From Escherichia phage PGT2, in the sequence record NC_047890.1: a DNA stretch of 42,686 nucleotides, one strand, 5' to 3'. A program made the position numbers and the translations under genes. The notes under the pieces were generated by a model. The model searched no databases. It was not told the origin of the DNA and saw only the letters and a program-made list of their open reading frames with translations. How positions within the stretch are numbered: the stretch's first letter is position 1; each line of letters opens with the position of its first letter. Shown here piece by piece: positions 1 to 42,686 of the stretch.

Positions 1-260
1 TCCAACACAAATGAGGTCGCGTTTCCCCCGTAGGCCCGGCCTTCTGGATGGCTAAATGGCTGGATGGATGGATGGCTGGACGGCTAGACGTTTAGACGGC
101 TAAATGGCCAAATGACCGTAAAAAGGGCCGTGGGCACTGATAGGGTCAATCGGGCTGTAAGCCACGCCAACCGGGGTTTCCGCACATTACTTTATAAGAG
201 AGCTTGTAAGGTGTCTGGCGGCGATCCGTCTACGACGGGAGAAGGAAAGAGACGTGGGGT
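1..260. repeat. Left direct terminal repeat (DTR), 260 bp
   Basis: Bases 1-260 are identical to 42427-42686, checked block by block. The repeat runs to the window edge, so 260 bp is a minimum length. Confidence 0.9.
48..118. repeat. Array of short imperfect ~8-bp repeats (CTRRAYGG-like) inside the terminal repeat
   Basis: ggctaaatgg ctggatgg atggatgg ctggacgg ctagacgt ttagacgg ctaaatgg ccaaatga read directly. Resembles the short repeat series in T7 terminal repeats. Confidence 0.6.
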
Positions 261-316
261 ATCTATCTTTTTGGATACGCCTATCTTTTTCTAGTCATCT
301 ATCTTCTTACGATGAG

Positions 317-336
317 CTATCTATCTATCTATCTAT
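317..336. repeat. (CTAT)5 microsatellite flanked by TATCT-TTTTT iterons
   Basis: ctatctatctatctatctat at 317-336; ctatcttttt recurs at about 263-273 and 284-294, just inside the left terminal repeat. Confidence 0.6.
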
Positions 337-383
337 CCAGCTATCCGATTATCTTCGCTTCGACGGATCGGCTATCGCCTTTC

Positions 384-413
384 TTGTCTCCGCTACGATA
401 AGGGAGCTATACT
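384..413 (+). promoter_or_regulatory. Candidate sigma70-type promoter (TTGTCT-18-TATACT)
   Basis: -35 ttgtct at 384-389, -10 tatact at 408-413, 18-bp spacer; lies upstream of the strong RBS of ORF 453. Confidence 0.3.
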
Positions 414-452
414 AAGGATTGTGTTATTGCTCTTTAAGAATGAGGTGAGATT

Positions 453-656
453 ATGGCTATACGTAATTGGGCGGCGGTGCTGGCCATTGTGGATAGTGTG
501 GGGACTGAAGCGGCGTTATCCTTGCCGTATGTTCCGGCTGATGCTAACACTATGCCGGACCGGGCCAAAAGATATGCAATTGAGTACAACATACAACGGG
601 GGAAGTATGGCGAGACCTTGCCGGAAGTACCGACGTCGTGCACTTATCGGGATTGA
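453..656 (+). CDS. Hypothetical early protein (67 aa)
   Basis: ATG at 453 preceded by SD gaggtgag with 7-nt spacing; first ORF after the terminal repeat. Confidence 0.45.
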   Translation: MAIRNWAAVLAIVDSVGTEAALSLPYVPADANTMPDRAKRYAIEYNIQRGKYGETLPEVPTSCTYRD

Positions 657-1047
657 TGTATCCGGGTATCATCCGCCGGCTGTGGTCCGGAACTGGTTAA
701 GGGATACTTTAAGGGATGAATCCAAGGGACTAGCCGATCAGCTTATTTGTAAGCCGTGGGCTGTCTGGTTAGTTTGGGCGCATGATGAGATAGATAGTAA
801 GCGGGTCAGTCTTCTGTGCTGTGTAGGGGAGCGGCAAGCCTTAACTATTATGGATAACGCGGCCCGGCTTGACGGGTATCTGTGCCGGCTGTATCAGTCC
901 GATGGCGATGCGGTCGATATTAGTCATCTGTCCGAGTATAAATCGGTGCATAACTGGACCGGATACTGGAAGCATGTACACGGTGAGGATATGCCGATGA
1001 CGATTAGTGATGACGGATTGAGAAAGCTGCGGGAGATGATAGCATGA
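607..1047 (+). CDS. Hypothetical early protein (146 aa); possibly the C-terminal part of a frameshifted product with ORF 453-656
   Basis: ATG at 607 follows a G5 run (598-602); frame is +1 relative to ORF 453 and overlaps its 3' end; a strong terminator follows the stop. Confidence 0.35.
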   Translation: MARPCRKYRRRALIGIDVSGYHPPAVVRNWLRDTLRDESKGLADQLICKPWAVWLVWAHDEIDSKRVSLLCCVGERQALTIMDNAARLDGYLCRLYQSDGDAVDISHLSEYKSVHNWTGYWKHVHGEDMPMTISDDGLRKLREMIA

Positions 1048-1051
1048 TGAT

Positions 1052-1088
1052 AAGGGGCGGGGAGTGTATCCTTGCCCCTTTCTTTTTG
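1052..1088 (+). terminator. Rho-independent terminator
   Basis: 12-bp stem aaggggcgggga / tccttgcccctt (two G-U pairs), loop gtgta, then tctttttgt. Confidence 0.6.
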
Positions 1089-1217
1089 TATTGTGGATCC
1101 CTGACGTTCTCCTGATCGGGCTTATGCACTCATGGCTGTGCGTTGGCTTGTCTTACGTGTGATTAGGTGTCTGGTGAGAACGTGGGAGATTATTTTCGAT
1201 TATTTTTAAAATATCGC

Positions 1218-1246: not shown

Positions 1247-1442
1247 TAATTTCAACGGCGGGGTAGTGGGAAGACAAGCCGATAAAATAGGATTCCCTCC
1301 ACATGGTCAGTTACCATAGGTCATCCGAGACACCAAACGGAATAACTAACAAGTAGTAACACCGGGGCAAGGAGGCCGCCTCGAAAGAGGAAAGTAGCTG
1401 GTAATGGCGTATGAAGCATTACCCCGGTGAGAAAGAAAGAGA

Positions 1443-1471
1443 TTGACAAGTTCAGAAGTAAGCAGTAAGAT
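1443..1471 (+). promoter_or_regulatory. Candidate sigma70 early promoter (TTGACA-17-TAAGAT)
   Basis: Consensus -35 ttgaca at 1443-1448; -10 taagat at 1466-1471; shares the upstream 18-mer aagaaagagattgacaag with the promoter at 1639. Confidence 0.45.
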
Positions 1472-1638
1472 GTAAATCAAGCAGTACGGGAGGAGGCGCA
1501 ACGGAAGGCGCGACACGGCGGGGAGTGATACAAGGACGCGCCAAAGGGAGAACGGATAGGAACTGCGAACCCTTCCGGATACCCGCTACGGATAGCACAG
1601 TTTGCCGGAGTATGCAGACACGGTAAGCAAGAAAGAGA

Positions 1639-1667
1639 TTGACAAGCTGGACAAGTTACCCGATAAT
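1639..1667 (+). promoter_or_regulatory. Candidate sigma70 early promoter (TTGACA-17-GATAAT)
   Basis: Consensus -35 ttgaca at 1639-1644; -10 gataat at 1662-1667; an RBS and small ORF follow. Confidence 0.55.
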
Positions 1668-1698
1668 AAGCTCAACGAATCGCAACGAGGAGAGAGAA

Positions 1699-1857
1699 AT
1701 GACTTACTACGAATCAGCAGAGAACGAGATGATCACCGCAGCACGCGCAGAAAAAGAAGTGCGCCGCCACGGTTGCAGCGTAGCAGAATTTTACGCAGAC
1801 TGCGGTACTCATGAGGAGTACGACGCACAAGCTGTGTTAGAATGGTTAGGGTACTAA
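1699..1857 (+). CDS. Small acidic early protein (52 aa)
   Basis: ATG at 1699 preceded by SD aggagag; lies downstream of the promoter at 1639; 11 acidic versus 4 K/R residues. Confidence 0.45.
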   Translation: MTYYESAENEMITAARAEKEVRRHGCSVAEFYADCGTHEEYDAQAVLEWLGY

Positions 1858-1878
1858 CAGAAAGTTTGAAGAAATAGG

Positions 1879-1907
1879 TTGACAAGTTAAGCAGTAAGCA
1901 GTAACCT
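1879..1907 (+). promoter_or_regulatory. Candidate sigma70 early promoter (TTGACA-17-TAACCT, weak -10)
   Basis: -35 ttgaca at 1879-1884; the spacer carries two AAGCAGTA copies, paralogous to the promoter at 1443. Confidence 0.35.
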
Positions 1908-2122
1908 AGAAAGCAAGCAGTACAGCAGTATCACAGCAGCCTAGAATAGGTTGAGTCGCACTCGGTGTGAATAGCTGACCTGACAGCGATATGGTTCAGG
2001 GGGGCCGGAGGATAGACAGTGACGTCGCCAATAAGCCCAACAAACGAAAGGTTTGTTAGTGTATCCTCACAGTAGGGTACAGCAACAAACTAACCGTAAA
2101 CGCAACGTAAACGAGGCGCACC

Positions 2123-16332: not shown

Positions 16333-17052
16333 ATGTTGTTAATGCTCTCTGGCGCGATTGGCGCTGGCAAAGATACCTTCGGTGAGTTCCTGTACGACTC
16401 ATTCGACAAGTTCGGCTACAGCGTGGAAGTGGTGAAGTTTGCCGACCCCATTCGTGAAGCTGCATTTAAGCTCGGATTCAATCCAGATGACCGGGCAACC
16501 AAGGAAGTCCCTGCAATACGCCATTATAAACTCTCAGAACTTGATGAGGCCATTTTTACTACTCATACCTGCCTGACACCTTACGAGCGCCGAATGGTCG
16601 CTGTACGAGTTCACCAGAGATTAATTAACATTCGCAAGGAGAAACATGATGGCATCTACAAGCCTGTCGTCAGTACGCGAGAATTTATGCAGGTCGTCGG
16701 TGGGACTGTACGAGACGCTAAAGAAGATTATTACATCCAGCACATGCTTCTCAATACACCAGAATCACGCGTTAACATCTGCACTGATACTCGGTTCATC
16801 AACGAGCAGCGAATTGGGGATTATTCGGTCTACGTTGAGCGCCCAAACAACCCGTTGGCGGTTCATACCCGCGACGCGTCGGAAGCAGCACAAGCGTTGC
16901 TCCGGGGGGCGGCGAAGAAAGTAATCCTGAACAACAGCACTCTGGATAATCTGGCTGAAGAAGCCGATTACGTGGCTACAACATTAATTTCAAAAGGGTA
17001 TTGTGATGACGCAGTTAAAGACGCAGGCGGAACTGGAATCTTTATCGAGTGA
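16333..17052 (+). CDS. P-loop deoxynucleoside monophosphate kinase-like protein
   Basis: N-terminal P-loop MLLMLSGAIGAGKDT resembles T4 dNMP kinase MKLIFLSGVKRSGKDT; strong SD tgagga. Confidence 0.6.
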   Translation: MLLMLSGAIGAGKDTFGEFLYDSFDKFGYSVEVVKFADPIREAAFKLGFNPDDRATKEVPAIRHYKLSELDEAIFTTHTCLTPYERRMVAVRVHQRLINIRKEKHDGIYKPVVSTREFMQVVGGTVRDAKEDYYIQHMLLNTPESRVNICTDTRFINEQRIGDYSVYVERPNNPLAVHTRDASEAAQALLRGAAKKVILNNSTLDNLAEEADYVATTLISKGYCDDAVKDAGGTGIFIE

Positions 17053-18976
17053 GCGCGGTCTTGCCAAGCTGATGGCCGAGTGTGAGCAGGCTGAATCAGC
17101 GGGGCGTGCATCCGGCGCGTTTTATGCCAAGCAGTTGTTAGAGCGTTTTGTTAACCGTATGGCCGAACGTATTGACCACGAGATGGCGAATCCGGGTGCT
17201 GGCCGCGCGAAAGCGCATAAGAAACTGGTCGCTGTGTTTGACTCCAAAGTCACTGCGTTTATTTCTGTATCAACCACATTGAACATGCTGATGGTCAACG
17301 AGCAGACACCGGGCACCAGCCTTAGTCGCGCCCTCGGCAATGCAATGTATAACGAACTGTTCTGTACCACATTCGACGATGCCAACCCGGACCTGTTTCA
17401 CACCATCTGCAAGGACTTGGATAAGCGCCAGAGCAAATCCAGCCGCCACCGCATGACGGTACTGAAGAATCAGGCAGCGAAGAAGGGTATCGCGTGGGAG
17501 AACTGGACCGTCACCGAAATCCTTCAGGTCGGTGAGTGGTGTCTGGATAATCTGGTGTCAGTTGGTCTGTGCGAAACGCATACCGAGGTGTCTCGCGGTA
17601 AGGCGAAGATGTACGTGGAACTGTCCGACGAGGCGCTGGGAATGATTGAGGATACCAAACGTCTGGTGTCCTTCTTCCGGCCCCAGCGCCTCCCGTTCGT
17701 AGAGAAGCCTCTGGACTGGACCGGGATTGTTGGTGGTGGCTACCATACTGCTCGTATGCAGAGTACGATGCCTCGTTGCATCAAAGCCAGCCCGACCCAG
17801 ATGGATGTACTCATAAAGCACCGTGACGACTACAAGGATACGGTGGTGGCGTGCATTAACACTCTGCAATCGGTAGAGTGGCGTATCAACAAGCGTATTC
17901 TGGAAGTGCAGCAGCAGATGTTCCGAGGCTTTGAGCCGAAGAACAAGCCTGATGCTCTGGAGTGTCATAGCAAGGACGTTGAAGAGTGGACCGAGGCAGA
18001 TAAATCTCTACACAGCCACTGGAAGAAGGAAATGGCTCGCTGGTACACAGAGCAGCGTGCAGAGCGTTATGCCGCTTCACGACATGCCTACACGTTGTCA
18101 GTGGCACGAGAGTTCGCTGACTACCCGCGTATCTGGTTCATGTACTTCGCCGACTGGCGCGGGCGTTATTACCCGGCCACCACAGGCATCTCGCCGCAGG
18201 GGACCGACATCTCTAAATCCATGCTGGAGTTCGCCAATGGCAAGCCCATCTCTGACCCAATCGCAGAACAGTTCTTCTTCCTCCTTGGTTCAACTAAATT
18301 CGGATTCGACAAAGGCTCTATATCCGAACGAGTTCAGTGGGTTCACAAGAATCACGACCTTATCTTGGCGTGTGCCGACGAACCGCTACTACATACTGAT
18401 TTCTGGTACAGAGAAGCAGATAAGAAGACCCGCTACCAATTTCTGGCATGGTGTTTTGAATATGCTGAATACACGCGGTTCCCAGCTGGATTTGTATCAC
18501 GACTTCCGGTGTCTCTTGATGGCACATGTAATGGCCTACAACACTATTCGGCGATGCTACGAGATTCGGTTGGTGCTAAGGCTACCAACCTGTTACCTGC
18601 TAACCGACCAAACGATATTTACGCGCAAGTCGCAGGCGTTGTCACCAACCTTCTTGAAAGCATGTCACCTGCCGACTTCCCGGCACTGACACGCGAATCT
18701 AAGCCTCTCAGCGTCTATGAGGTGGACTTCTTCCGTAGGGCATGGTTACACCACGGTATCAGCCGTAGCCTCGTTAAACGGTGCGTTATGACGTTACCTT
18801 ACGGGTCCAAGAAGTTCAGCATGGGTCGCTTCATCAAAGGCGACTACATGATGGACATTCACCCGGAAGAGTTCGACACCGACGACTACACCGACGCAAA
18901 GTATGTTCCCGCCAGACCAGAGTTCGGTGACCTCGATTTAGAGCAGGTCAATCACTCCGAATACTTCTTCCTGTAG
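17006..18976 (+). CDS. T7-like single-subunit RNA polymerase, apparently lacking the C-terminal ~190 aa (motif C and C-terminus)
   Basis: PLDWTGIVGGGY, DWRGRYY...PQGTD, FLAWCFEYA, LDGTCNGLQHYSAMLRD (motif A) and VMTLPYGSKKF (motif B) align with T7 RNAP; the ORF stops about 50 residues after motif B. Confidence 0.85.
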   Translation: MTQLKTQAELESLSSERGLAKLMAECEQAESAGRASGAFYAKQLLERFVNRMAERIDHEMANPGAGRAKAHKKLVAVFDSKVTAFISVSTTLNMLMVNEQTPGTSLSRALGNAMYNELFCTTFDDANPDLFHTICKDLDKRQSKSSRHRMTVLKNQAAKKGIAWENWTVTEILQVGEWCLDNLVSVGLCETHTEVSRGKAKMYVELSDEALGMIEDTKRLVSFFRPQRLPFVEKPLDWTGIVGGGYHTARMQSTMPRCIKASPTQMDVLIKHRDDYKDTVVACINTLQSVEWRINKRILEVQQQMFRGFEPKNKPDALECHSKDVEEWTEADKSLHSHWKKEMARWYTEQRAERYAASRHAYTLSVAREFADYPRIWFMYFADWRGRYYPATTGISPQGTDISKSMLEFANGKPISDPIAEQFFFLLGSTKFGFDKGSISERVQWVHKNHDLILACADEPLLHTDFWYREADKKTRYQFLAWCFEYAEYTRFPAGFVSRLPVSLDGTCNGLQHYSAMLRDSVGAKATNLLPANRPNDIYAQVAGVVTNLLESMSPADFPALTRESKPLSVYEVDFFRRAWLHHGISRSLVKRCVMTLPYGSKKFSMGRFIKGDYMMDIHPEEFDTDDYTDAKYVPARPEFGDLDLEQVNHSEYFFL

Positions 18977-19095: not shown

Positions 19096-19139
19096 TGATT
19101 TAGGGTATTTGTTAAATATGGCTTGAAGCCTTGATATAT

Positions 19140-19169
19140 GGGGTTTCCGCACATTATTTTAATAAGGGG
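19140..19169 (+). promoter_or_regulatory. Conserved 28-bp element GGGGTTTCCGCACATTAYTTTA(A)TAAGRG; candidate phage promoter or other regulatory site
   Basis: Near-identical copies at 173-200 and 42599-42626 (inside the terminal repeats); first 17 nt identical, then 1 mismatch and 1 indel. Confidence 0.4.
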
Positions 19170-35714: not shown

Positions 35715-35743
35715 GGTGGGCTTCGGCCCACCTCTATTTTATT
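35715..35743 (+). terminator. Rho-independent terminator between the gp16-like gene and the tail fiber gene
   Basis: Perfect 7-bp stem ggtgggc / gcccacc with loop ttcg, then tctattttatt. Confidence 0.6.
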
Positions 35744-35753
35744 GGAGATTTTG

Positions 35754-38516
35754 ATGGCTATTACGTTTTATGCTACCAACAACTTCACTGGTGATGGTAC
35801 TACCGTAAACTGGAATATTAACTTCGCAGACGGTTATATCGACATCACCACCGTGAAGGCGCGGTATCTGGATAATACCGGGAGCTACGTTGACATCGCT
35901 ATTTCAAGCGTGGCAGGAAACGTAGTAACCATTTCCCCGGCTGTGGCGGACGGTCAGGAGTTCCAAATCTATCGTGATACAGAGAAGCGGTTCCCGCTGG
36001 TGGACTTCTCTGACGGTGCAATCCTCAACGAGACTAACCTTGACACGCTGGCTACTCAAGCTGTGATGGTGTCTGCTGAGGCATTCGACCAGTCTAACAA
36101 CGGTGTGCGTATCGCAGGTGATTCCTTGGTTGTTGCACAGGGTATCGACGCCAAGGCACAGGAAGCTCTGGACAACTCCGAGGCTGCTGTAGCTACAGCG
36201 AACGGTATCGACGGTAAAGCGCAGACGGCATTGAATACCGCCGCCGCCGCTGTCGCCACGGCTAATGCTGCCACATCTACTGCTGCTGGTGCTGTATCTA
36301 CGGCCAACACCGCACTGTCTACTGCCCACGATGCCGCCGATGACGCAGCTACCGCTATCACTACCGCTAACGGCGCTGTGATTACGGCCAATGCTGCAAC
36401 CACTACGGCCAACGCCGCTAGTGCTGCCGCCTCTGCTGCAACGACTACTGCGAACAGTGCTGCAAACGACGCTGCTACTGCTGTGTCTACTGCGGGTACG
36501 GCCTTGTCTACTGCGAACACCGCATCTACCAACGCCTCTACCGCTGTGTCCACGGCTAACGGCGCTAAGGCTACTGCTGAGGGTATCGAGGCTAAAGCGG
36601 ATTCTGCTTTGGCAGCCTCTGCTACCGCTGTGTCCACAGCTAACTCAGCCGAGGCTACGGCCAACGCTATCGACGGTAAGGCTACGGACGCATTAGACAC
36701 TGCCGACTCCGCTGTGGCTACGGCTAACGCTGCTGTTTCTACGGCTAACTCTGCTACTGCTACGGCTAATGCTGCCTCTTCTACTGCGAGTTCGGCTGCC
36801 TCTGACGCCAGTACCGCCTTGAGCACAGCTAATGCTATTGACGCAAAGGCACAGACTGCTTTGGATAATACCACGGCTCTGGATGCGGCCACCATGAAGA
36901 AAGCCGCCAACTTATCTGATATTGCGGATAAGGCGGCTGCATGGCTTAACGTCCGTCCTATTGGCTCCACGCCATTGGCAGGCGACCCGGTAGGGGATTA
37001 CGATGCTGTTACTAAGCGTTGGGTAGAGAACCTGATTAACACAGGTACTGTCGGTCCAACCATGAACGGGGTGATGAACTTCGGCGTCGGTGACTTCCAT
37101 CTCCGGGATAGCCGCGCGTACATCCAGCCTTATGAGGTTGTCTCTGACGGTCAGTTACTGAACCGCGCTGACTGGCCTGAACTTTGGGCCTACGCCCAAA
37201 TGCTGTCGCCTATAACGGATGCAGCTTGGTTGGCAGACCCTCTCAAGCGCGGCGCTTACTCTACCGGAAACGGAACCACTACCTTCCGAGTACCGGATAG
37301 GAACGGTGTTCAGTCAGGCTCTGTAAGGGCGCTTTTTGGGCGTGGTGACGGTGGGAACTCTTCTATCGGCAGTACCATCATGGAGTCCTTCGTACCGAAT
37401 ATCACGGCTACGTTAAATATGCACGGTGCTGGTCCCGCATCAGAACCTGCCGCTGGTACTAACGTGGCAGGATTTGGTGGTGCCTTGGTTGCTACGGGAG
37501 AGGCTCTCCCGAGATACCTGCGTGGGGTTACTCTGTTATCTGCTGGTGGTAACTCCTATGGTGGAGCTACCTTCGATGCCTCCCGTTCCAGTGCTGCTTA
37601 TGGTCGTGGTGGTCTGACTACGGATGAGGTTCTGCCGCGTAACTTCACTGGTGTATGGGTAATTCGTGCATCTGGCGGCTTCGTAGCGGCTAATACGCAG
37701 TGGCAGGTTATAAACCAAGATGCGACTAGGCCCGGTAACGGTACTGCCGTCTTAGGTGGTAATATTGTATCTGAGTACCGCGTTGGTGGTGCCTTGGAGG
37801 GTACAGCAAACTTCCGTATGGCGGGTACTATCGATGGTTCGTATGGCGCGCGCATTGCTGTTTATAATGCCACATCTTTAAATGGCGCCAGCTTCGATTT
37901 TACAGAGCACGGGAACATAGAGACTCCCCTTGGTAGGGCTATTGTTATAGGCAACTATGGTATAGGTTCGCAAGCAGATGCTATACCTACTTCGAGGGAT
38001 AACGCATTTATCTCTAACGCTGATAGTAATAGTTCTTGGTCTGCTTCTAACGGGGGTGGCTTTCAAATTACATATGCAGCTAACCGTATCGTCCAGTTCT
38101 GGGTAAGTCAAGGTGGTACTACGGCTTATTTCCGTGCTAATAGCACAGACAGTAACCCCCAACGACCGAAGTCTGCATCTCCTTGGGTCACACTCCAGAA
38201 TGCTGGTACTTCGGACGCTAATGTAAAAACCGTCCTCGGTGACTTAGACTTATCTATACCGTTGAGTAATATCAACGCACTGGAGTTTAAGAAATTCCGC
38301 TACAACAAGGATGGTGAGGATGGCCCGGTTCGACGGGGCATTATCGCGCAGCAGGCGCAGAATGTGGACCCGGAGTACGTACATTCTGCGGATAAGTCCG
38401 GGGTTATGACTCTTGATAGTAACCCGCTGCTGTTGGATGCTCTAGCTGCTGTCAAAGCACTATCTGCTAAAGTGGCCGCTCTGGAAGAGCGTATTGATGA
38501 ACTAACTTCTCAGTAA
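35754..38516 (+). CDS. Tail fiber protein: T7 gp17-like N-terminal adaptor, Ala/Thr/Ser-rich repeat shaft, C-terminal intramolecular chaperone domain
   Basis: N-terminus LVDFSDGAILNETNLDTLATQAVMVSAEA parallels T7 gp17 [29 protein letters not shown]; C-terminus GIIAQQAQ...LAAVKALSAKVAALEERIDELT is chaperone-like; ORF track start 35742 is a TTG. Confidence 0.8.
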   Translation: MAITFYATNNFTGDGTTVNWNINFADGYIDITTVKARYLDNTGSYVDIAISSVAGNVVTISPAVADGQEFQIYRDTEKRFPLVDFSDGAILNETNLDTLATQAVMVSAEAFDQSNNGVRIAGDSLVVAQGIDAKAQEALDNSEAAVATANGIDGKAQTALNTAAAAVATANAATSTAAGAVSTANTALSTAHDAADDAATAITTANGAVITANAATTTANAASAAASAATTTANSAANDAATAVSTAGTALSTANTASTNASTAVSTANGAKATAEGIEAKADSALAASATAVSTANSAEATANAIDGKATDALDTADSAVATANAAVSTANSATATANAASSTASSAASDASTALSTANAIDAKAQTALDNTTALDAATMKKAANLSDIADKAAAWLNVRPIGSTPLAGDPVGDYDAVTKRWVENLINTGTVGPTMNGVMNFGVGDFHLRDSRAYIQPYEVVSDGQLLNRADWPELWAYAQMLSPITDAAWLADPLKRGAYSTGNGTTTFRVPDRNGVQSGSVRALFGRGDGGNSSIGSTIMESFVPNITATLNMHGAGPASEPAAGTNVAGFGGALVATGEALPRYLRGVTLLSAGGNSYGGATFDASRSSAAYGRGGLTTDEVLPRNFTGVWVIRASGGFVAANTQWQVINQDATRPGNGTAVLGGNIVSEYRVGGALEGTANFRMAGTIDGSYGARIAVYNATSLNGASFDFTEHGNIETPLGRAIVIGNYGIGSQADAIPTSRDNAFISNADSNSSWSASNGGGFQITYAANRIVQFWVSQGGTTAYFRANSTDSNPQRPKSASPWVTLQNAGTSDANVKTVLGDLDLSIPLSNINALEFKKFRYNKDGEDGPVRRGIIAQQAQNVDPEYVHSADKSGVMTLDSNPLLLDALAAVKALSAKVAALEERIDELTSQ
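36100..36900. repeat. Imperfect tandem codon repeats (STAN/ATAN units) inside the tail fiber gene
   Basis: About 16 copies of nCyACnGCnAAy (encoding x-T-A-N) at roughly 7-, 11- and 14-residue spacing. Confidence 0.7.
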
Positions 38517-38525
38517 GGAGAGCCG

Positions 38526-38897
38526 ATGTCCGACTTCGAAGAAGAGGATGTCACACAGGAAGAGAACGGGTCTTCGGACCTGTTCAAACCCTTAGAGACT
38601 ATCCCCGGCGCTACCGCCAACCGGGACCAGATGGCAGAGCTACACCAGCTTATCTGCATCGCCCTGTCCGCACGTATCCGGGCAGGTATCTGGTCCTCCG
38701 GCGATATTGCCGCAGCTACAAAGTTCCTGAAGGACAACAACGTTACTGCCGATGTTGGCGACAACAAGGCACTCCAGAAACTACGCGATGAGATGGAAAC
38801 TAAGCAGAAGGCACGTCGTGAAGAACGGACGTATCTCTCTGAGCAAGAACTCGTCAAACTCGCAACGGAAGAACTGAATAACGAGATATGGCACTAA
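38526..38897 (+). CDS. Terminase small subunit (putative)
   Basis: Small acidic protein directly upstream of and overlapping the large terminase gene; strong SD aaggagag; assigned by synteny. Confidence 0.55.
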   Translation: MSDFEEEDVTQEENGSSDLFKPLETIPGATANRDQMAELHQLICIALSARIRAGIWSSGDIAAATKFLKDNNVTADVGDNKALQKLRDEMETKQKARREERTYLSEQELVKLATEELNNEIWH

Positions 38898-40696
38898 GAG
38901 AATCAGCAGAAAGAGAAGAACAGCGGTTACTTGAACTCGCAGCACTGCGGGACATGTACCCCACGTTCCTACCGTTTCTGATTGATTTCATGGTGATGCT
39001 CGGATTCTTCGTCACCCCGGTACAGAAGCTCATTGCTCAATTCCTTGAGTACGGGCCTCTGTACCGGATGGTGCAGGCCCAGCGTGGCCAAGCGAAGACT
39101 ACCATCACAGCCGCATATGCAATCTGGCGACTTATCCACGATACCAACCTTGCCGTGTTAATCGTCTCGGCAGGGGGCAAGCAGGCGAACGAGATTTCAA
39201 CCCTCATCGTCCGCTCATTCAAAACGTGGGATAAGCTGGCCTGCATGTGTCCTGACGCCTCTATGGGCGACCGTGAGTCAGTCGAAGCATTCGACGTTCA
39301 CTACAACTTAAAGAGGCTGAATAAATCTCCGTCCGTGGCCTGTACTGGCATCACGGGTAACTTGCAGGGTAAACGTGCGGGTCTGCTTATCGCGGACGAC
39401 GTTGAGTCCCAGAAGAACTCCCTGACTGCGGTCATGCGTGAGAACCTTCTGAACCTGACTCGTGACTTTACCTCCATCTGCTCCACCGGGGATATTATCT
39501 ACCTCGGTACACCGCAGACTACAGAATCAATTTATAACACCCTGCCGGGGCGTGGCTTTACTGTCCGCATCTGGCCGGGACGTTTCCCTACCGCAGAGCA
39601 GGTGGAAGCCTACGGCGACCAGCTATGCCCTGTCTTTAGGATGAAGATTGCTTCACGCCCTGACCTGACTACAGGCTACGGGCCGGATGGGCTTCAGGGT
39701 GCTCCGGTTGACCCTGTAATCCTCGGCGAAGCCTTCCTGAACAAGAAAGAGATTGACCAAGGAACTGCATACTTCCAGTTGCAGCACATGCTTCAGACGC
39801 GCCTGATGGATGCTATGCGCAAGCCATTACACGCAGAGAAGCTGATTGTGGCCCAACTGCCGAAGCGTGACGGTCTGTTCCCTATCACCATTACGCGAGA
39901 AATCTCTGTACAAGCCTACATGCGCCGAAACGTCCTGAGCAAGCCTCTGGTATTCGGTGTGCCCGGTAGCGTGTCTAAGGACGTCGCTACGCTTCAGGGC
40001 GTATGCTTCTACATCGACCCTGCTGGTGGTGGTAAGAACGCGGATGAAACTGCATTCGCTTGTACCGGGTTCCTGAACTCCAATATCTTCCTACTGGATT
40101 GGGGCGGCTTACCGGGCGGATATGCCCCGGATGTTATGTCCGCTCTCGCTCAACGTGTGTTTGATGTACGGCCCAATGTTGTCAAAATCGAAAAGAACTT
40201 CGGTTACGGCGCATTCCGCGAAGTATGGTTGCCGTACCTCTGGGCCATTTATGATAAAGCTGGTGTTAACCGTCCCGGCGTAGAGGACGATATGGTACAC
40301 GGCCAGAAGGAGAAGCGAATCATTGATACGCTTGAGCCTGTAATGGGTCGTGGCTCGCTTATTGTTGACGAGCGTCTCATCAAGGAAGACGAAGACCAAA
40401 CCATGCGGTACAGCGCACAAATGCGTGTGACGTACTCCGGGTTCCTACAGATGGTTAATATCTCCTACGACAAAGATGCGTTGGTGCATGATGACCGACT
40501 GGATGCTTTGGAAGGAGCGGTTCGTCATTGGCAGGATTGGCTTGCCAAGAACCAAGAGAAGGCCATTCAGGCTCAACGGAAACGTGAGTTCGAAGAGTGG
40601 CAGAAAGACCCTATGATGAAGAAGCGTTGTCAGTCCGTGAAGGAATACAATGCTGGTCGTCGTGGTAAAACCATGTTTGATAAGAGAAAACGCTAA
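38888..40696 (+). CDS. Terminase large subunit
   Basis: LAVLIVSAGGKQ, SPSVACTGITGNLQGKRAGLLIADDVESQKNS, IIYLGTPQT and ALVHDDRLDALEGA match the corresponding T7 gp19 segments. Confidence 0.9.
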   Translation: MALRESAEREEQRLLELAALRDMYPTFLPFLIDFMVMLGFFVTPVQKLIAQFLEYGPLYRMVQAQRGQAKTTITAAYAIWRLIHDTNLAVLIVSAGGKQANEISTLIVRSFKTWDKLACMCPDASMGDRESVEAFDVHYNLKRLNKSPSVACTGITGNLQGKRAGLLIADDVESQKNSLTAVMRENLLNLTRDFTSICSTGDIIYLGTPQTTESIYNTLPGRGFTVRIWPGRFPTAEQVEAYGDQLCPVFRMKIASRPDLTTGYGPDGLQGAPVDPVILGEAFLNKKEIDQGTAYFQLQHMLQTRLMDAMRKPLHAEKLIVAQLPKRDGLFPITITREISVQAYMRRNVLSKPLVFGVPGSVSKDVATLQGVCFYIDPAGGGKNADETAFACTGFLNSNIFLLDWGGLPGGYAPDVMSALAQRVFDVRPNVVKIEKNFGYGAFREVWLPYLWAIYDKAGVNRPGVEDDMVHGQKEKRIIDTLEPVMGRGSLIVDERLIKEDEDQTMRYSAQMRVTYSGFLQMVNISYDKDALVHDDRLDALEGAVRHWQDWLAKNQEKAIQAQRKREFEEWQKDPMMKKRCQSVKEYNAGRRGKTMFDKRKR

Positions 40697-42250: not shown

Positions 42251-42402
42251 AAGCTCTCACAAGCTCTACAACGCTCTCAAGGACGAGAGCAGTACGATGT
42301 TACCACCTGACCCTGATTAGATGCCTGATGACTTCATTAGCACGTTTTAAGTTGATTCCTGATTACGTGGTTAGCTAGTCCACAGAGGGCAGTCCTAAAA
42401 TT

Positions 42403-42411
42403 TGATATAAT
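42403..42411 (+). promoter_or_regulatory. Extended -10 promoter element (TGaTATAAT) facing the right terminal repeat
   Basis: tg at 42403-42404 and perfect tataat at 42406-42411; no good -35, which extended -10 promoters can lack. Confidence 0.35.
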
Positions 42412-42426
42412 TTTGTGAGGGGGCAG

Positions 42427-42686
42427 TCCAACACAAATGAGGTCGCGTTTCCCCCGTAGGCCCGGCCTTCTGGATGGCTAAATGGCTGGATGGATGGATG
42501 GCTGGACGGCTAGACGTTTAGACGGCTAAATGGCCAAATGACCGTAAAAAGGGCCGTGGGCACTGATAGGGTCAATCGGGCTGTAAGCCACGCCAACCGG
42601 GGTTTCCGCACATTACTTTATAAGAGAGCTTGTAAGGTGTCTGGCGGCGATCCGTCTACGACGGGAGAAGGAAAGAGACGTGGGGT
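42427..42686. repeat. Right direct terminal repeat (DTR), 260 bp
   Basis: Exact copy of 1-260. Confidence 0.9.

What the first reader, a model, noticed from the sequence alone, without database searches (positions are those of the whole stretch)
1..260. Complete genome with exact 260-bp direct terminal repeats and an internal short-repeat array
Identical ends show the window is a whole linear genome rather than a fragment. The repeat contains a run of about eight 8-bp CTRRAYGG-like units, and (CTAT)5 plus TATCT-TTTTT iterons lie just inside the left repeat. These resemble the concatemer-processing and packaging signals of T7-type phages.
Basis: partly seen in the sequence, partly recalled or inferred. 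Interest (0 to 1): 0.4.

Follow-up and report, generated by a model that had tools for sequence, protein, structure and literature searches.

The report
T7-type terminal repeat with met-box array
The identical 260-bp ends are the genuine terminal repeats of a T7-family phage genome, which is ordinary, but the short-repeat run inside them looks like an oversized binding site for the host's methionine repressor MetJ, and similar runs sit in the terminal repeats or near the record ends of several unrelated phage groups.

Summary
Observation confirmed. Bases 1-260 equal 42427-42686 exactly; the 8-bp run, three TATCTTyTT copies and (CTAT)n are present and non-random. The window is a phiKT-like Autographiviridae genome.

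The repeat is almost certainly physical. Both edges fall, to the base, where defined T7-family termini fall: a TC... start with CCCCrTAG at +26 (+24 to +30 in 7 of 7 phages), and a repeat end directly followed by ATCTATCTTTTT. T7 and T3 have ATCTGTT there, the class II RNA-polymerase pause signal (CJ).

A promoter-like 22-mer lies inside the repeat and otherwise only upstream of the structural genes.

The 8-bp run is not a T7-type packaging signal. A close relative with the same edges lacks it. With the published MetJ matrix it scores as 9 adjacent met boxes (56 bits; E. coli metF 24.9, metJ-metB 31.2; simulated genomes at most 21.7). Similar arrays occur in jumbo phages, T5-like Vibrio, Aeromonas and Providencia phages, Myosmarvirus and a Klebsiella T7-like phage. 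They lie in the terminal repeat or near a record end where that could be checked. All but one of 93 hosts belong to orders with MetJ. Binding is untested, and box position 6 deviates.

In passing: the phage RNA polymerase lacks 167 aa, including motif C.

The parts
1..260 (+). Left direct terminal repeat (DTR)
   Evidence: Exactly identical to 42427-42686. Present once, as a continuous junction, in phiKT and L006.
42427..42686 (+). Right direct terminal repeat
   Evidence: the repeat finder D2.
1..37 (+). Left-terminus box TCCAACAC...TTCCCCCGTAGGCCCGG (cut-site-proximal conserved sequence)
   Evidence: The 15-mer TTCCCCCGTAGGCCC is identical and at the same offset in phiKMV. CCCC[AG]T[AG][GT] lies 24-30 nt from the left end in 7 of 7 phages and occurs on the + strand only in the DTR copies. 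Invariant in phiKT and nearly so in L006.
42396..42426 (+). Conserved block just upstream of the right-end cut: TAAAATTTGATATAATTTTGTGAGGGGGCAG|
   Evidence: Resembles phiKMV CCAATTTTGATATCGTCGTGTGAG..| and SP6 AAAATTTTGATATAGGCGTGTG..|, and is conserved in L006. It contains TGATATAAT, a perfect extended -10 by inspection. GGGCAGTCC, which spans the cut at 42421-42429, is duplicated at 42387-42395.
38..109 (.).
   Evidence: Published MetJ matrix: 9 boxes, 56.0 bits. The only other site in the genome is a 2-box, 13.1-bit one. The null maximum is 3 boxes and 21.7 bits. Only 2 of 576 permuted matrices do as well. Conserved in phiKT, absent in L006.
148..194 (+). Promoter-like block; core GGGGTTTCCGCACATTACTTTA at 173-194 (right copy 42574-42620)
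   Evidence: A second copy at 19115-19161 (core 19140-19161, 1 mismatch) lies after the RNAP gene and a terminator-like hairpin with a T-run (by inspection) and before the structural genes. There are no other copies with 3 or fewer mismatches, and 0 are expected. The block is conserved in phiKT and, in diverged form, in L006.
261..272 (+). ATCTATCTTTTT, the first unique bases after the DTR; positional counterpart of the T7 CJ class II pause signal
   Evidence: T7 and T3 have CCCT|ATCTGTT, SP6 A|TCTGTT, Percy A|TCTATCTT, L006 CCCT|ATCTATCTTTTT. Conserved in phiKT. Class II consensus.
282..308 (+). Second and third iterons (TATCTTTTT 282-290, ATCTATCTTCTT 297-308)
   Evidence: Not conserved in phiKT or L006.
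317..345 (+). (CTAT)n microsatellite, which amounts to overlapping ATCTATC cores
   Evidence: TRF. Replaced by (TATG)n in phiKT.
19115..19161 (+). Internal copy of the promoter-like block, upstream of the late (structural) genes
38526..40696 (+). Terminase small (38526-38897) and large (38888-40696) subunits, the enzymes expected to act on the repeat edges
   Evidence: PHROG 891 and PHROGs 38 and 17672. TerL has about 2,700 Autographiviridae relatives.
17003..18976 (+). Single-subunit phage RNA polymerase, here with a 167-aa internal deletion (junction at about 18897)
   Evidence: PHROG 414 and Pfam PF00940 matches are truncated; alignment to phiKT, phiKMV and T3.

Best explanation
The 260-bp identical ends are the physical direct terminal repeats of a phiKT-like (Ermolevavirus) T7-supergroup podovirus. 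They are the two copies made from the single repeat that joins genome units in replicating concatemers. The repeat is a composite of four elements. (1) Its left edge is the conserved family terminus (TC..., then CCCCCrTAGG about 25 nt in), preceded in the concatemer by a conserved AAAATTTGATAT...GTGAG block. (2) Its right edge abuts ATCTATCTTTTT, a variant of the T7 class II RNA-polymerase pause signal that sits at exactly this place in T7 and T3. (3) A copy of the phage's late promoter-like sequence lies 67 bp upstream of that motif, inside the repeat. (4) An accessory array of nine 8-bp units resembles a very long operator for the host methionine repressor MetJ. Proposed working, by analogy with T7 (inferred): rightward transcription by the phage polymerase, from the repeat's own promoter and by read-through from the late operon, pauses at the repeat's right edge. 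Terminase (TerS and TerL) is recruited there. Staggered cuts at the two edges plus strand-displacement synthesis duplicate the repeat, so each packaged genome carries a copy at both ends. The array is not part of this machinery. The most likely reading is that it binds MetJ-SAM cooperatively on the first DNA to enter the cell and on every replicated copy, acting as a repressor sponge or a SAM-dependent switch. Shown: the sequence features, their conservation and the matrix scores. Inferred: pausing, promoter activity, the cutting mechanism and MetJ binding.
For: Exact 260-bp identity. The genome is phiKT-like, with all genes on one strand and a T7-family RNAP, TerS and TerL. phiKT and the independent metagenome contig L006 hold the repeat once, as a continuous junction. 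Both edges match defined termini to the base. The terminal box lies 24-30 nt from the end in 7 of 7 phages and nowhere else on the + strand. ATCT[AG]T[CT] starts within 1 nt of the repeat end in the window, T7, T3, SP6 and Percy, against a per-position frequency of 0.5-2.6e-4. The same paired signature occurs 160-280 bp apart in the distant relatives L007, L015 and L017. For the class II signal definition and the role of the CJ pause in maturation. The promoter-like 22-mer occurs only in the repeat and at 19140. Met-box scoring, nulls and controls. Array distribution. Its match to the phyletic range of MetJ.
Against: No read data, so the physical termini are inferred from homology. ATCTATC differs from ATCTGTT at 2 of 7 positions, T7 RNAP tolerates no change there, and phiKMV has no such motif at its edge. 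Promoter activity is unproven; only two distinct copies exist, and a co-variation test could not be run. This genome's own RNAP lacks motif C, so the promoter and pause elements may be idle here. For the array: position 6 of the boxes is G in 65%, against T in 87% of natural met boxes. No sigma-70 promoter overlaps it. One array-bearing phage, XbC2, is listed with a Xanthomonas host, an order without MetJ. L006 does without the array.
Confidence: 0.8

Rival explanations
1. The identical ends are an assembler artefact: a circular or circularly collapsed assembly was opened at an arbitrary point and left with an overlap.
For: phiKT's record holds the element once and is permuted. No reads are available.
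Against: An arbitrary opening point would have to coincide to the base with the family-conserved left terminus, and the overlap length would have to end to the base at the CJ-type motif. From general knowledge, 260 bp is not a usual k-mer overlap.
Confidence: 0.04
2. The 8-bp array is a phage-specific packaging signal, for example a set of binding repeats for the small terminase.
For: It lies in the repeat, 38 bp from the terminus. Short repeats in and next to T7-group terminal repeats are common. KPV811, another T7-family phage, has an array at the same place.
Against: It is absent from L006, which keeps both conserved edges and an 88%-identical TerL. It is absent from T3, SP6, phiKMV and Percy and from the T7 end regions held. 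The same unit occurs in phage groups whose packaging machinery I presume to be unrelated; their terminases were not compared.
Confidence: 0.12
3. The array is bound by some other factor with 8-bp periodic recognition, such as another ribbon-helix-helix protein of host or phage. Alternatively it is a hypervariable slippage product with no function, and the MetJ resemblance is partly coincidental.
For: The systematic G at box position 6. Homogeneous (CTGGATGG)n microsatellites also score as met boxes. T7-group terminal-repeat regions are known slippage hot spots. No promoter context.
Against: The frequency profile correlates at r = 0.87 with the MetJ matrix in one register only. Only 2 of 576 permuted matrices fit as well. 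The heterogeneous units vary mainly at the MetJ-tolerated positions. The host range matches MetJ's orders. No MetJ homolog was found in the phage sequence held, which was limited.
Confidence: 0.3
4. The promoter-like element plus the T-rich iterons to its right form a transcription-activated replication origin, like the T7 phiOL and phiOR secondary origins, rather than or as well as a pause and packaging signal.
For: In T7 and T3 a phage promoter lies close to each end (phiOL and phiOR). From my own knowledge, T7 origins consist of a phage promoter followed by an AT-rich stretch. The iterons and (CTAT)n are AT-rich.
Against: Only the first motif, the one at the repeat edge, is conserved in phiKT and L006. 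Its position matches CJ, not an origin. No primase-site analysis was possible.
Confidence: 0.2

Closest known systems
Terminal repeat and concatemer junction of T7 and T3 (Teseptimavirus, Teetrevirus), including the CJ class II pause signal
   Same: Exact direct repeats of 160-231 bp. The left end starts TC... with CCCCCATAG about 27-30 nt in. The repeat ends ...CCCT and is followed at once by ATCTGTT (here ...GGGT|ATCTATC). A phage promoter reads rightward toward that site. The terminase is of the same family.
   Different: The motif here is ATCTATC, 5 of 7 matches. The promoter copy is inside the repeat, not about 550 bp upstream like phiOR. T7's CCTAAAG repeats (seen in the TR and just inside it; the SRL/SRR names are from memory) are replaced by different short repeats. 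The RNAP gene sits late in the genome, as in phiKMV.
phiKMV-type genomes (Krylovirinae) and Escherichia phage phiKT (Ermolevavirus)
   Same: phiKT is 95.5% identical over the structural half and carries the same 260-bp element. phiKMV shares the 15-mer TTCCCCCGTAGGCCC at the same offset from the end, the pre-cut TTTTGATAT...GTGTGAG block and the gene order.
   Different: phiKT's record is permuted and shows the repeat once, unannotated. phiKMV's repeat is 414 bp, has no ATCT motif at its edge and has no met-box array.
MetJ operators (tandem met boxes, consensus AGACGTCT) of E. coli and other Gammaproteobacteria
   Same: Contiguous 8-bp units. Every unit passes the published single-box threshold. 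Base preferences match at 7 of 8 positions. Phage host range matches the orders that have MetJ.
   Different: 9 boxes here and up to 14 in jumbo phages, against the 4 boxes each that I scored at E. coli metF and metJ-metB (natural operators have 2-5 boxes by memory). G is preferred at position 6. There is no overlapping sigma-70 promoter and no met gene. The array lies in a phage terminal repeat.
Hypervariable short repeats in and beside T7-group terminal repeats (Yersinia fPS phages, PMC5923468)
   Same: Short tandem repeats inside the repeat and between it and the first phage promoter differ in copy number between close relatives, as (CTAT)n and the extra iterons do between the window and phiKT.
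   Different: Those repeats have 10- and 12-bp units and other sequences. No host-factor assignment was made for them.
Host-factor site clusters in the T5 left terminal repeat (DnaA boxes of the injection-stop region, bioRxiv 10.1101/866236)
   Same: Non-coding parts of a terminal repeat, on the first DNA to enter, carry arrays of host DNA-binding-protein sites. In Vibrio T5-like phages the met-box arrays lie next to DnaA-box-like motifs.
   Different: T5 itself has no met-box array there. The proposed factor is DnaA, not MetJ.

Membership tests
T7-supergroup direct terminal repeat / concatemer junction | Exact direct repeat of a few hundred bp at both genome ends | tested here: met
   260 bp, 100% identical. 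Panel values are 160-414 bp.
T7-supergroup direct terminal repeat / concatemer junction | Genome encodes the T7-family TerL, TerS and single-subunit RNAP, with all genes on one strand | tested here: met
   (the RNAP is present but deleted).
T7-supergroup direct terminal repeat / concatemer junction | Conserved left-terminal sequence (TC..., C-run + rTAG about 25 nt from the end) | tested here: met
   Box at position 26; 24-30 in 7 of 7 phages; unique to the repeat.
T7-supergroup direct terminal repeat / concatemer junction | Relatives hold one copy of the repeat as a continuous junction with the same edges | tested here: met
   phiKT and L006.
T7-supergroup direct terminal repeat / concatemer junction | Defined physical ends in virion DNA (read-start pile-ups, coverage doubling, restriction mapping) | not testable with these tools
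   No reads or DNA available.
T7 class II pause/termination signal (CJ) | Strictly conserved ATCTGTT on the non-template strand | tested here: not met
   ATCTATC at 261-267, 5 of 7 matches. Any change abolishes the signal for T7 RNAP. Percy and L006 share the ATCTATCT variant.
T7 class II pause/termination signal (CJ) | Preceded by A, C or T and followed by a T-rich run | tested here: met
   T260 precedes it and TTTTT at 268-272 follows.
T7 class II pause/termination signal (CJ) | Located at the right edge of the terminal repeat in the concatemer junction | tested here: met
   Starts at the first unique base, as in T7 (161) and T3 (232).
T7 class II pause/termination signal (CJ) | The phage RNAP actually pauses or terminates there | not testable with these tools
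   Needs in vitro transcription with the phiKT-type RNAP.
MetJ operator (met-box array) | Two or more directly adjacent 8-bp boxes, each at least 1/4 of the consensus score, with a total at least equal to the consensus (criterion of PMC3228920) | tested here: met
   9 boxes, 56.0 bits. The controls metF (24.9) and metJ-metB (31.2) were recovered. The null maximum is 21.7.
MetJ operator (met-box array) | Position-specific base preferences of natural met boxes | tested here: inconclusive
   r = 0.87 overall and 0.04 or less in other registers, but position 6 is G 65% against T 87% in natural boxes.
MetJ operator (met-box array) | Overlaps or abuts the promoter of a regulated gene | tested here: not met
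   No sigma-70-like site at or beside 38-109. The nearest element is the phage promoter-like block at 148-194.
MetJ operator (met-box array) | The host encodes MetJ | tested here: met
   phiKT's host is Escherichia. MetJ is confined to five orders. 92 of 93 array-bearing phage records have hosts in three of them. The window's own host is not stated.
MetJ operator (met-box array) | SAM-dependent binding by MetJ | not testable with these tools
   Needs EMSA, footprinting or ChIP.
Assembler-generated terminal overlap | Arbitrary start point and overlap length unrelated to biological signals | tested here: not met
   Both edges coincide with family-conserved termini.

The most novel reading that the evidence does not exclude
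Virulent phages of MetJ-bearing Gammaproteobacteria, from at least five unrelated lineages, place 'super-operators' for the host methionine repressor in non-coding DNA. Those lineages are Ermolevavirus, Drulisvirus KPV811, Rak2/121Q/GAP32-type jumbo phages, Vibrio/Aeromonas/Providencia Demerecviridae and Myosmarvirus. The arrays have 3 to 14 contiguous met boxes and lie in the terminal repeat, or near a record end, wherever this could be checked, often close to the first-entering DNA end. They would act as a sponge that derepresses methionine and SAM synthesis, or as a SAM-sensing switch acting on the incoming or replicating genome. This would be a class of phage cis-element that hijacks a host metabolic repressor, and I found no description of it in the literature I could search.
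Probability: 0.4. Interest if true: 0.75.

Novelty: new variant of a known kind. Interest (0 to 1): 0.5.

Why it matters
The terminal repeat itself adds little: it is one more T7-family genome with defined ends. Two points are useful. First, both repeat edges can be recognised from sequence alone across distant Autographiviridae: a terminal CCCCrTAG box about 25 nt in, and an ATCTrTy motif at the first unique base. That gives a read-free way to orient and close such genomes, including phiKT's permuted record. It also suggests that polymerase pausing at the junction, established for T7, extends to other subgroups with a variant signal. Second, the short-repeat run appears to be a host-repressor binding array shared by unrelated phages in their terminal repeats. 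If MetJ binds it, phages would be manipulating or sensing host methionine and SAM metabolism through DNA alone. That would be relevant to SAM-dependent defences and to phage engineering, where terminal regions are usually treated as inert.

Tried and rejected
1. Independent contigs ending at the same base. L029 carries the 17-mer promoter core at nearly the same offset from its end, but in L029-L035 the match lies inside an unrelated coding region. Rejected.

2. Promoter co-variation. Searching for L006's diverged promoter variant found only L006 itself and an unrelated 96-kb contig. Searching relatives by RNAP returned only phiKT and the window. The test could not be run.

3. Secondary structure. 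The DTR folded as DNA gives z = -1.3, and RNA from 190-420 gives z = -0.7. Nothing significant.

4. A copy of an internal motif inside the DTR in other family members. None in T3, SP6, phiKMV or Percy.

5. A literature search for ATCTGTT at terminal-repeat edges returned only noise.

6. A phage-encoded MetJ homolog. None found by tblastn in the window or in the phage loci held, which were only partial genomes.

7. Pfam and PHROG searches of the leftmost ORFs 453-656 and 658-1047 gave no hits.

8. T5's injection-stop region has no met boxes; its DRD repeat is unrelated.

9. Host origin of the array: no match in 28 Gb of E. coli genomes.

10. A Chi-like reading of GCTGGATGG was rejected because it is not Chi. 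True Chi sites lie elsewhere.

11. The homogeneous (CTGAATGG)n and (CTGGATGG)n arrays in metagenome contigs L047, L048, L051 and L054 were treated as unrelated microsatellites.

Full report
**1. Observation**

The window's first and last 260 bases are identical, and no other overlap length above 1 matches (repeat finder D2). Tandem Repeats Finder reports an array at 44-108 with period 8 (7.8 copies) and period 16 (4.1 copies, score 60), and a (CTAT) run at 317-345.

Read in register from 44, the array is CTGGATGG CTAAATGG CTGGATGG ATGGATGG CTGGACGG CTAGACGT TTAGACGG CTAAATGG CCAAATGA, with no indels.

TATCTT[TC]TT occurs four times on the + strand of the genome, three of them at 264, 282 and 300, and never on the - strand. 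ATCTATC occurs seven times, six of them at 261-337. Shuffle means are 0.15 and 1.87.

**2. What the genome is**

- All long ORFs are on the + strand.
- The closest record is Escherichia phage phiKT (Autographiviridae, Ermolevavirus), 95.5% identical over the structural half and 86% over the first 1.2 kb.
- The layout is phiKMV-like: helicase, DNA polymerase, a single-subunit RNA polymerase at 17003-18976, then portal and capsid genes, with TerS at 38526-38897 and TerL at 38888-40696.
- About 2,700 phage records hold a TerL relative.
- The window is IMG/VR contig IMGVR_UViG_2974667396_000001.

**3. Are the repeats physical?**

No reads are available, so I used comparison.

(a) phiKT's record and L006, an independent metagenome contig with 88% TerL identity, both hold the element once. 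It forms a continuous junction between the lysis genes and the early region, as expected for a collapsed concatemer junction.

(b) I computed the terminal repeats of T3 (231 bp), SP6 (174), phiKMV (414) and Percy (201). For T7 I took the 160-bp repeat length from memory and checked its edges against the two fetched end segments. I then compared both edges.

| Edge | Window | Other phages |
|---|---|---|
| Left end | TCCAACAC...TTCCCCCGTAGGCCC | phiKMV has the same 15-mer at the same offset; T7, T3 and SP6 have TCTC...CCCCATAG |
| Upstream of the right copy | AAAATTTGATATAATTTTGTGAG... | phiKMV AATTTTGATATCGTCGTGTGAG; SP6 AAAATTTTGATATAGGCGTGTG |
| Repeat/unique boundary | GGGGT\|ATCTATCTTTTT | L006 CCCT\|ATCTATCTTTTT; T7 and T3 CCCT\|ATCTGTTA; SP6 A\|TCTGTT; Percy A\|TCTATCTT; phiKMV has no such motif |

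The box CCCC[AG]T[AG][GT] lies 24-30 nt from the left end in seven of seven phages, including Klebsiella phage KPV811. In the five whole genomes checked, the closely related pattern CCCC[AG]T[AG]G occurs on the + strand only in the two repeat copies. ATCT[AG]T[CT] has a per-position frequency of 0.5-2.6e-4.

The same pair of signals, 160-280 bp apart, occurs downstream of TerL in the distant relatives L007, L015 and L017. An arbitrary assembler breakpoint and overlap would not land on both signals to the base. I therefore regard the repeats as genuine, with confidence of about 0.95 short of read evidence.

**4. The edge motif and transcription**

Published work defines T7 class II pause/termination signals as follows:
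- ATCTGTT on the non-template strand, preceded by A, C or T.
- Strengthened by a downstream T-run.
- The only natural example is CJ at the concatemer junction.

In T7's sequence, ATCTGTT occupies 161-167, the first bases after the 160-bp repeat. The polymerase-lysozyme complex paused there is reported to interact with gp18 and gp19 to start maturation and packaging.

In the window, ATCTATCTTTTT occupies 261-272, preceded by T and followed by a T-run. It differs from the T7 heptamer at two positions. L006 and Percy share the ATCTATCT variant. Only this first copy is conserved in phiKT and L006. The second and third iterons and (CTAT)n are replaced in phiKT, which fits the known hypervariability of short repeats beside T7-group terminal repeats.

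A 47-nt block inside the repeat (148-194) recurs at 19115-19161, between the RNAP gene with its terminator-like hairpin and T-run (by inspection) and the structural genes. The 22-nt core GGGGTTTCCGCACATTAyTTTA occurs nowhere else with three or fewer mismatches, and 0 are expected. I read it as the phage-polymerase late promoter, with a second copy placed 67 bp upstream of the pause-like motif.

This parallels T7's phiOR-to-CJ arrangement, but with the promoter inside the repeat. T3, SP6, phiKMV and Percy show no such internal copy. Promoter and pause activity are inferred, not shown. A role as a replication origin, like T7's phiOL and phiOR, is not excluded.

**5. The 8-bp array**

It is conserved in phiKT with one substitution, but absent from L006, which keeps both edges and the promoter block. 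So it is not needed for the conserved termini.

A blastn search of the left end unexpectedly hit about 44 jumbo-phage records over just the array. In Asteriusvirus vB_Ec-M-J the match is a 12-14-unit array of the same 8-bp units. It lies about 0.8 kb from the left end, inside the annotated 21.5-kb terminal repeat.

A three-unit degenerate pattern scanned against 2.9 million viral contigs found heterogeneous arrays only in:
- this phage and phiKT;
- jumbo phages;
- Vibrio phage pVp-1, whose homologous region in VF16 is annotated 'Left terminal repeat';
- Serratia phages MyoSmar and MTx, where the array is inside the 'direct terminal repeat predicted by PhageTerm'.

Read two bases along, the units are RRAYGKCT. 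That recalled the MetJ met box AGACGTCT, which works as tandem 8-bp repeats. I tested this with the published matrix and site criterion (PMC3228920).

| Sequence | Adjacent boxes | Total bits |
|---|---|---|
| E. coli metJ-metB operator (control) | 4 | 31.2 |
| E. coli metF operator (control) | 4 | 24.9 |
| Window 38-109 | 9 | 56.0 |
| Only other site in the window genome | 2 | 13.1 |
| Best in 300 Markov-simulated genomes | 3 | 21.7 |
| vB_Ec-M-J | 14 | 105 |
| pVp-1 | 9 | 68 |
| GAP32 | 7 + 4 | not summed |
| MyoSmar and MTx | 3 | 26 |

T3, SP6, phiKMV, Percy, the T7 end regions held and L006 have none.

Across 62 phage boxes, the base frequencies correlate with the published matrix at r = 0.87 in this register and at 0.04 or less in the other seven. 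Only 2 of 576 column- and base-permuted matrices, counting the true one, fit the array as well.

A synthetic array of natural-style boxes retrieved 93 of 50,697 phage records. Their hosts are Escherichia, Vibrio, Erwinia, Aeromonas, Salmonella, Providencia, Klebsiella, Cronobacter, Pectobacterium and Serratia, plus one other, which I take to be the Xanthomonas phage XbC2. MetJ exists only in Enterobacteriales, Vibrionales, Aeromonadales, Pasteurellales and Alteromonadales.

KPV811 is a T7-family Drulisvirus. Read from its record end it starts with the canonical terminus, followed by 4+2 boxes at 66-121, including a perfect AGACGTCT. Vibrio phage Chester's record starts with about 11 boxes at 4-107, next to TTATCCACA motifs, the DnaA-box consensus.

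Points against the MetJ reading:
- Box position 6 is G in 65% of phage boxes, against T in 87% of natural ones.
- No sigma-70 promoter overlaps the array.
- XbC2, a Mimasvirus like the Cronobacter phage GAP32, is listed with a Xanthomonas host.
- T5 itself has no such array.
- Homogeneous microsatellites such as (CTGGATGG)n also score.
- I found no paper describing met boxes in phage genomes. Absence from this library is not proof of novelty.

My reading is that this is an accessory host-factor array, most likely bound by MetJ-SAM (about 0.5). What it does (sponge, SAM-dependent switch or end-proximal nucleoprotein) is open.

**6. Comparison and novelty**

The repeat is a member of the T7-supergroup terminal-repeat and concatemer-junction class. 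All sequence-testable defining features are met; physical ends are untestable here.

The edge motif works like CJ by position and context, but it fails the strict ATCTGTT definition. I therefore call it a CJ-like variant, not a class II signal.

The array meets the published met-box site criterion but not the usual operator context. I say it resembles a MetJ operator and do not file it as one.

Overall this is a new variant of a known kind. The repeat itself is ordinary; the embedded promoter copy and the met-box-type array are the new parts.

**7. Other points**

This genome's RNA polymerase lacks an in-frame 167-aa block that phiKT, phiKMV and T3 all have. The block includes NGIAPNFVHSLD and IHDSxGT (motif C). 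The Pfam match ends at profile position 183 of 448, against 374 in phiKT.

So this is either a deletion variant or a mis-assembly. It qualifies the 'complete genome' reading and raises doubt about whether the promoter and pause elements are used in this particular genome.

All eight Chi sites are on the + strand and none on the - strand. Simulations give a mean of about 1 per strand and a maximum of 5.

Noticed in passing
window 17003-18976 (junction at about 18897): The phage RNA polymerase gene has an in-frame 501-nt (167-aa) deletion relative to phiKT. It removes NGIAPNFVHSLD and the IHDSxGT motif C. The Pfam RNA_pol match stops at 183/448, against 374/448 in phiKT. No direct repeat flanks the junction. 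The enzyme is probably inactive, so this is a deletion variant, a mis-assembly or an RNAP-independent phage.
   Followed up: yes
window, whole genome (6504, 23621, 23714, 26272, 34492, 35996, 37542, 40022): All eight Chi sites (GCTGGTGG) are on the + strand and none on the - strand. Markov simulations give means of 1.04 and 0.67 with a maximum of 5. By my recollection of Chi polarity, this is the orientation recognised by RecBCD entering from the right end. It may instead be a by-product of codon usage, since all genes are on the + strand.
   Followed up: partly
window 384-1090: A small leftmost cassette lies between the repeat and the strong early promoters. It has a weak sigma-70-like site at 384-413, an ORF at 453-656 with a good ribosome-binding site (and further ORFs to 1047), then a strong terminator at 1052-1080 plus a T-run. 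It is conserved in phiKT and L006, unannotated in phiKT, and has no Pfam or PHROG hit.
   Followed up: partly
window 1425-1930: Three repeated strong sigma-70 promoter units (AAGAAAGAGATTGACAAG...TAAGAT) at about 1443, 1639 and 1879, analogous to T7 A1-A3. They lie 1.4-1.9 kb from the left end, further in than T7's.
   Followed up: no
window 42387-42429: The sequence spanning the right-end cut, GGGCAGTCC (42421-42429, cut after 42426), is duplicated 34 bp upstream at 42387-42395. L006 has the same arrangement. Between the two copies lies TGATATAAT (42403-42411), a perfect extended -10 hexamer context.
   Followed up: partly
window 36244-36829 and 36934-37360: The tail-fibre gene (35742-38516) contains a long 21-nt-period Ala/Thr/Ser-rich coding repeat. 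It also has a roughly 420-nt stretch 75-79% identical to L-shaped tail-fibre genes of T5-like phages (DT57C, DT571/2), which points to a mosaic receptor-binding protein.
   Followed up: no
L040 (Escherichia phage vB_Ec-M-J) 1-1300: The non-coding left end of the jumbo phage's terminal repeat carries, besides the met-box array, at least ten copies of a CAGTACTG-type palindrome.
   Followed up: no
L065 (Vibrio phage Chester) 200-280; L058 (VF16) about 1990-2050: TTATCCACA / TGTGGATAA motifs (the DnaA-box consensus) lie next to the met-box arrays in T5-like Vibrio phages. This recalls the DnaA-box clusters proposed for T5's injection-stop region.
   Followed up: partly
L063 (Klebsiella phage KPV811, reverse complement of the record's right end) 1-125: The record is deposited in reverse orientation. 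Its end reads as a canonical T7-family left terminus, followed by a G-run of about 17 and then the met-box array. No terminal repeat is annotated.
   Followed up: partly
phiKT record JN882298, 37842-38103: phiKT's GenBank record is circularly permuted. It holds the 260-bp element once, unannotated, between the holin gene and the early region. Its physical ends can be predicted from this window.
   Followed up: yes
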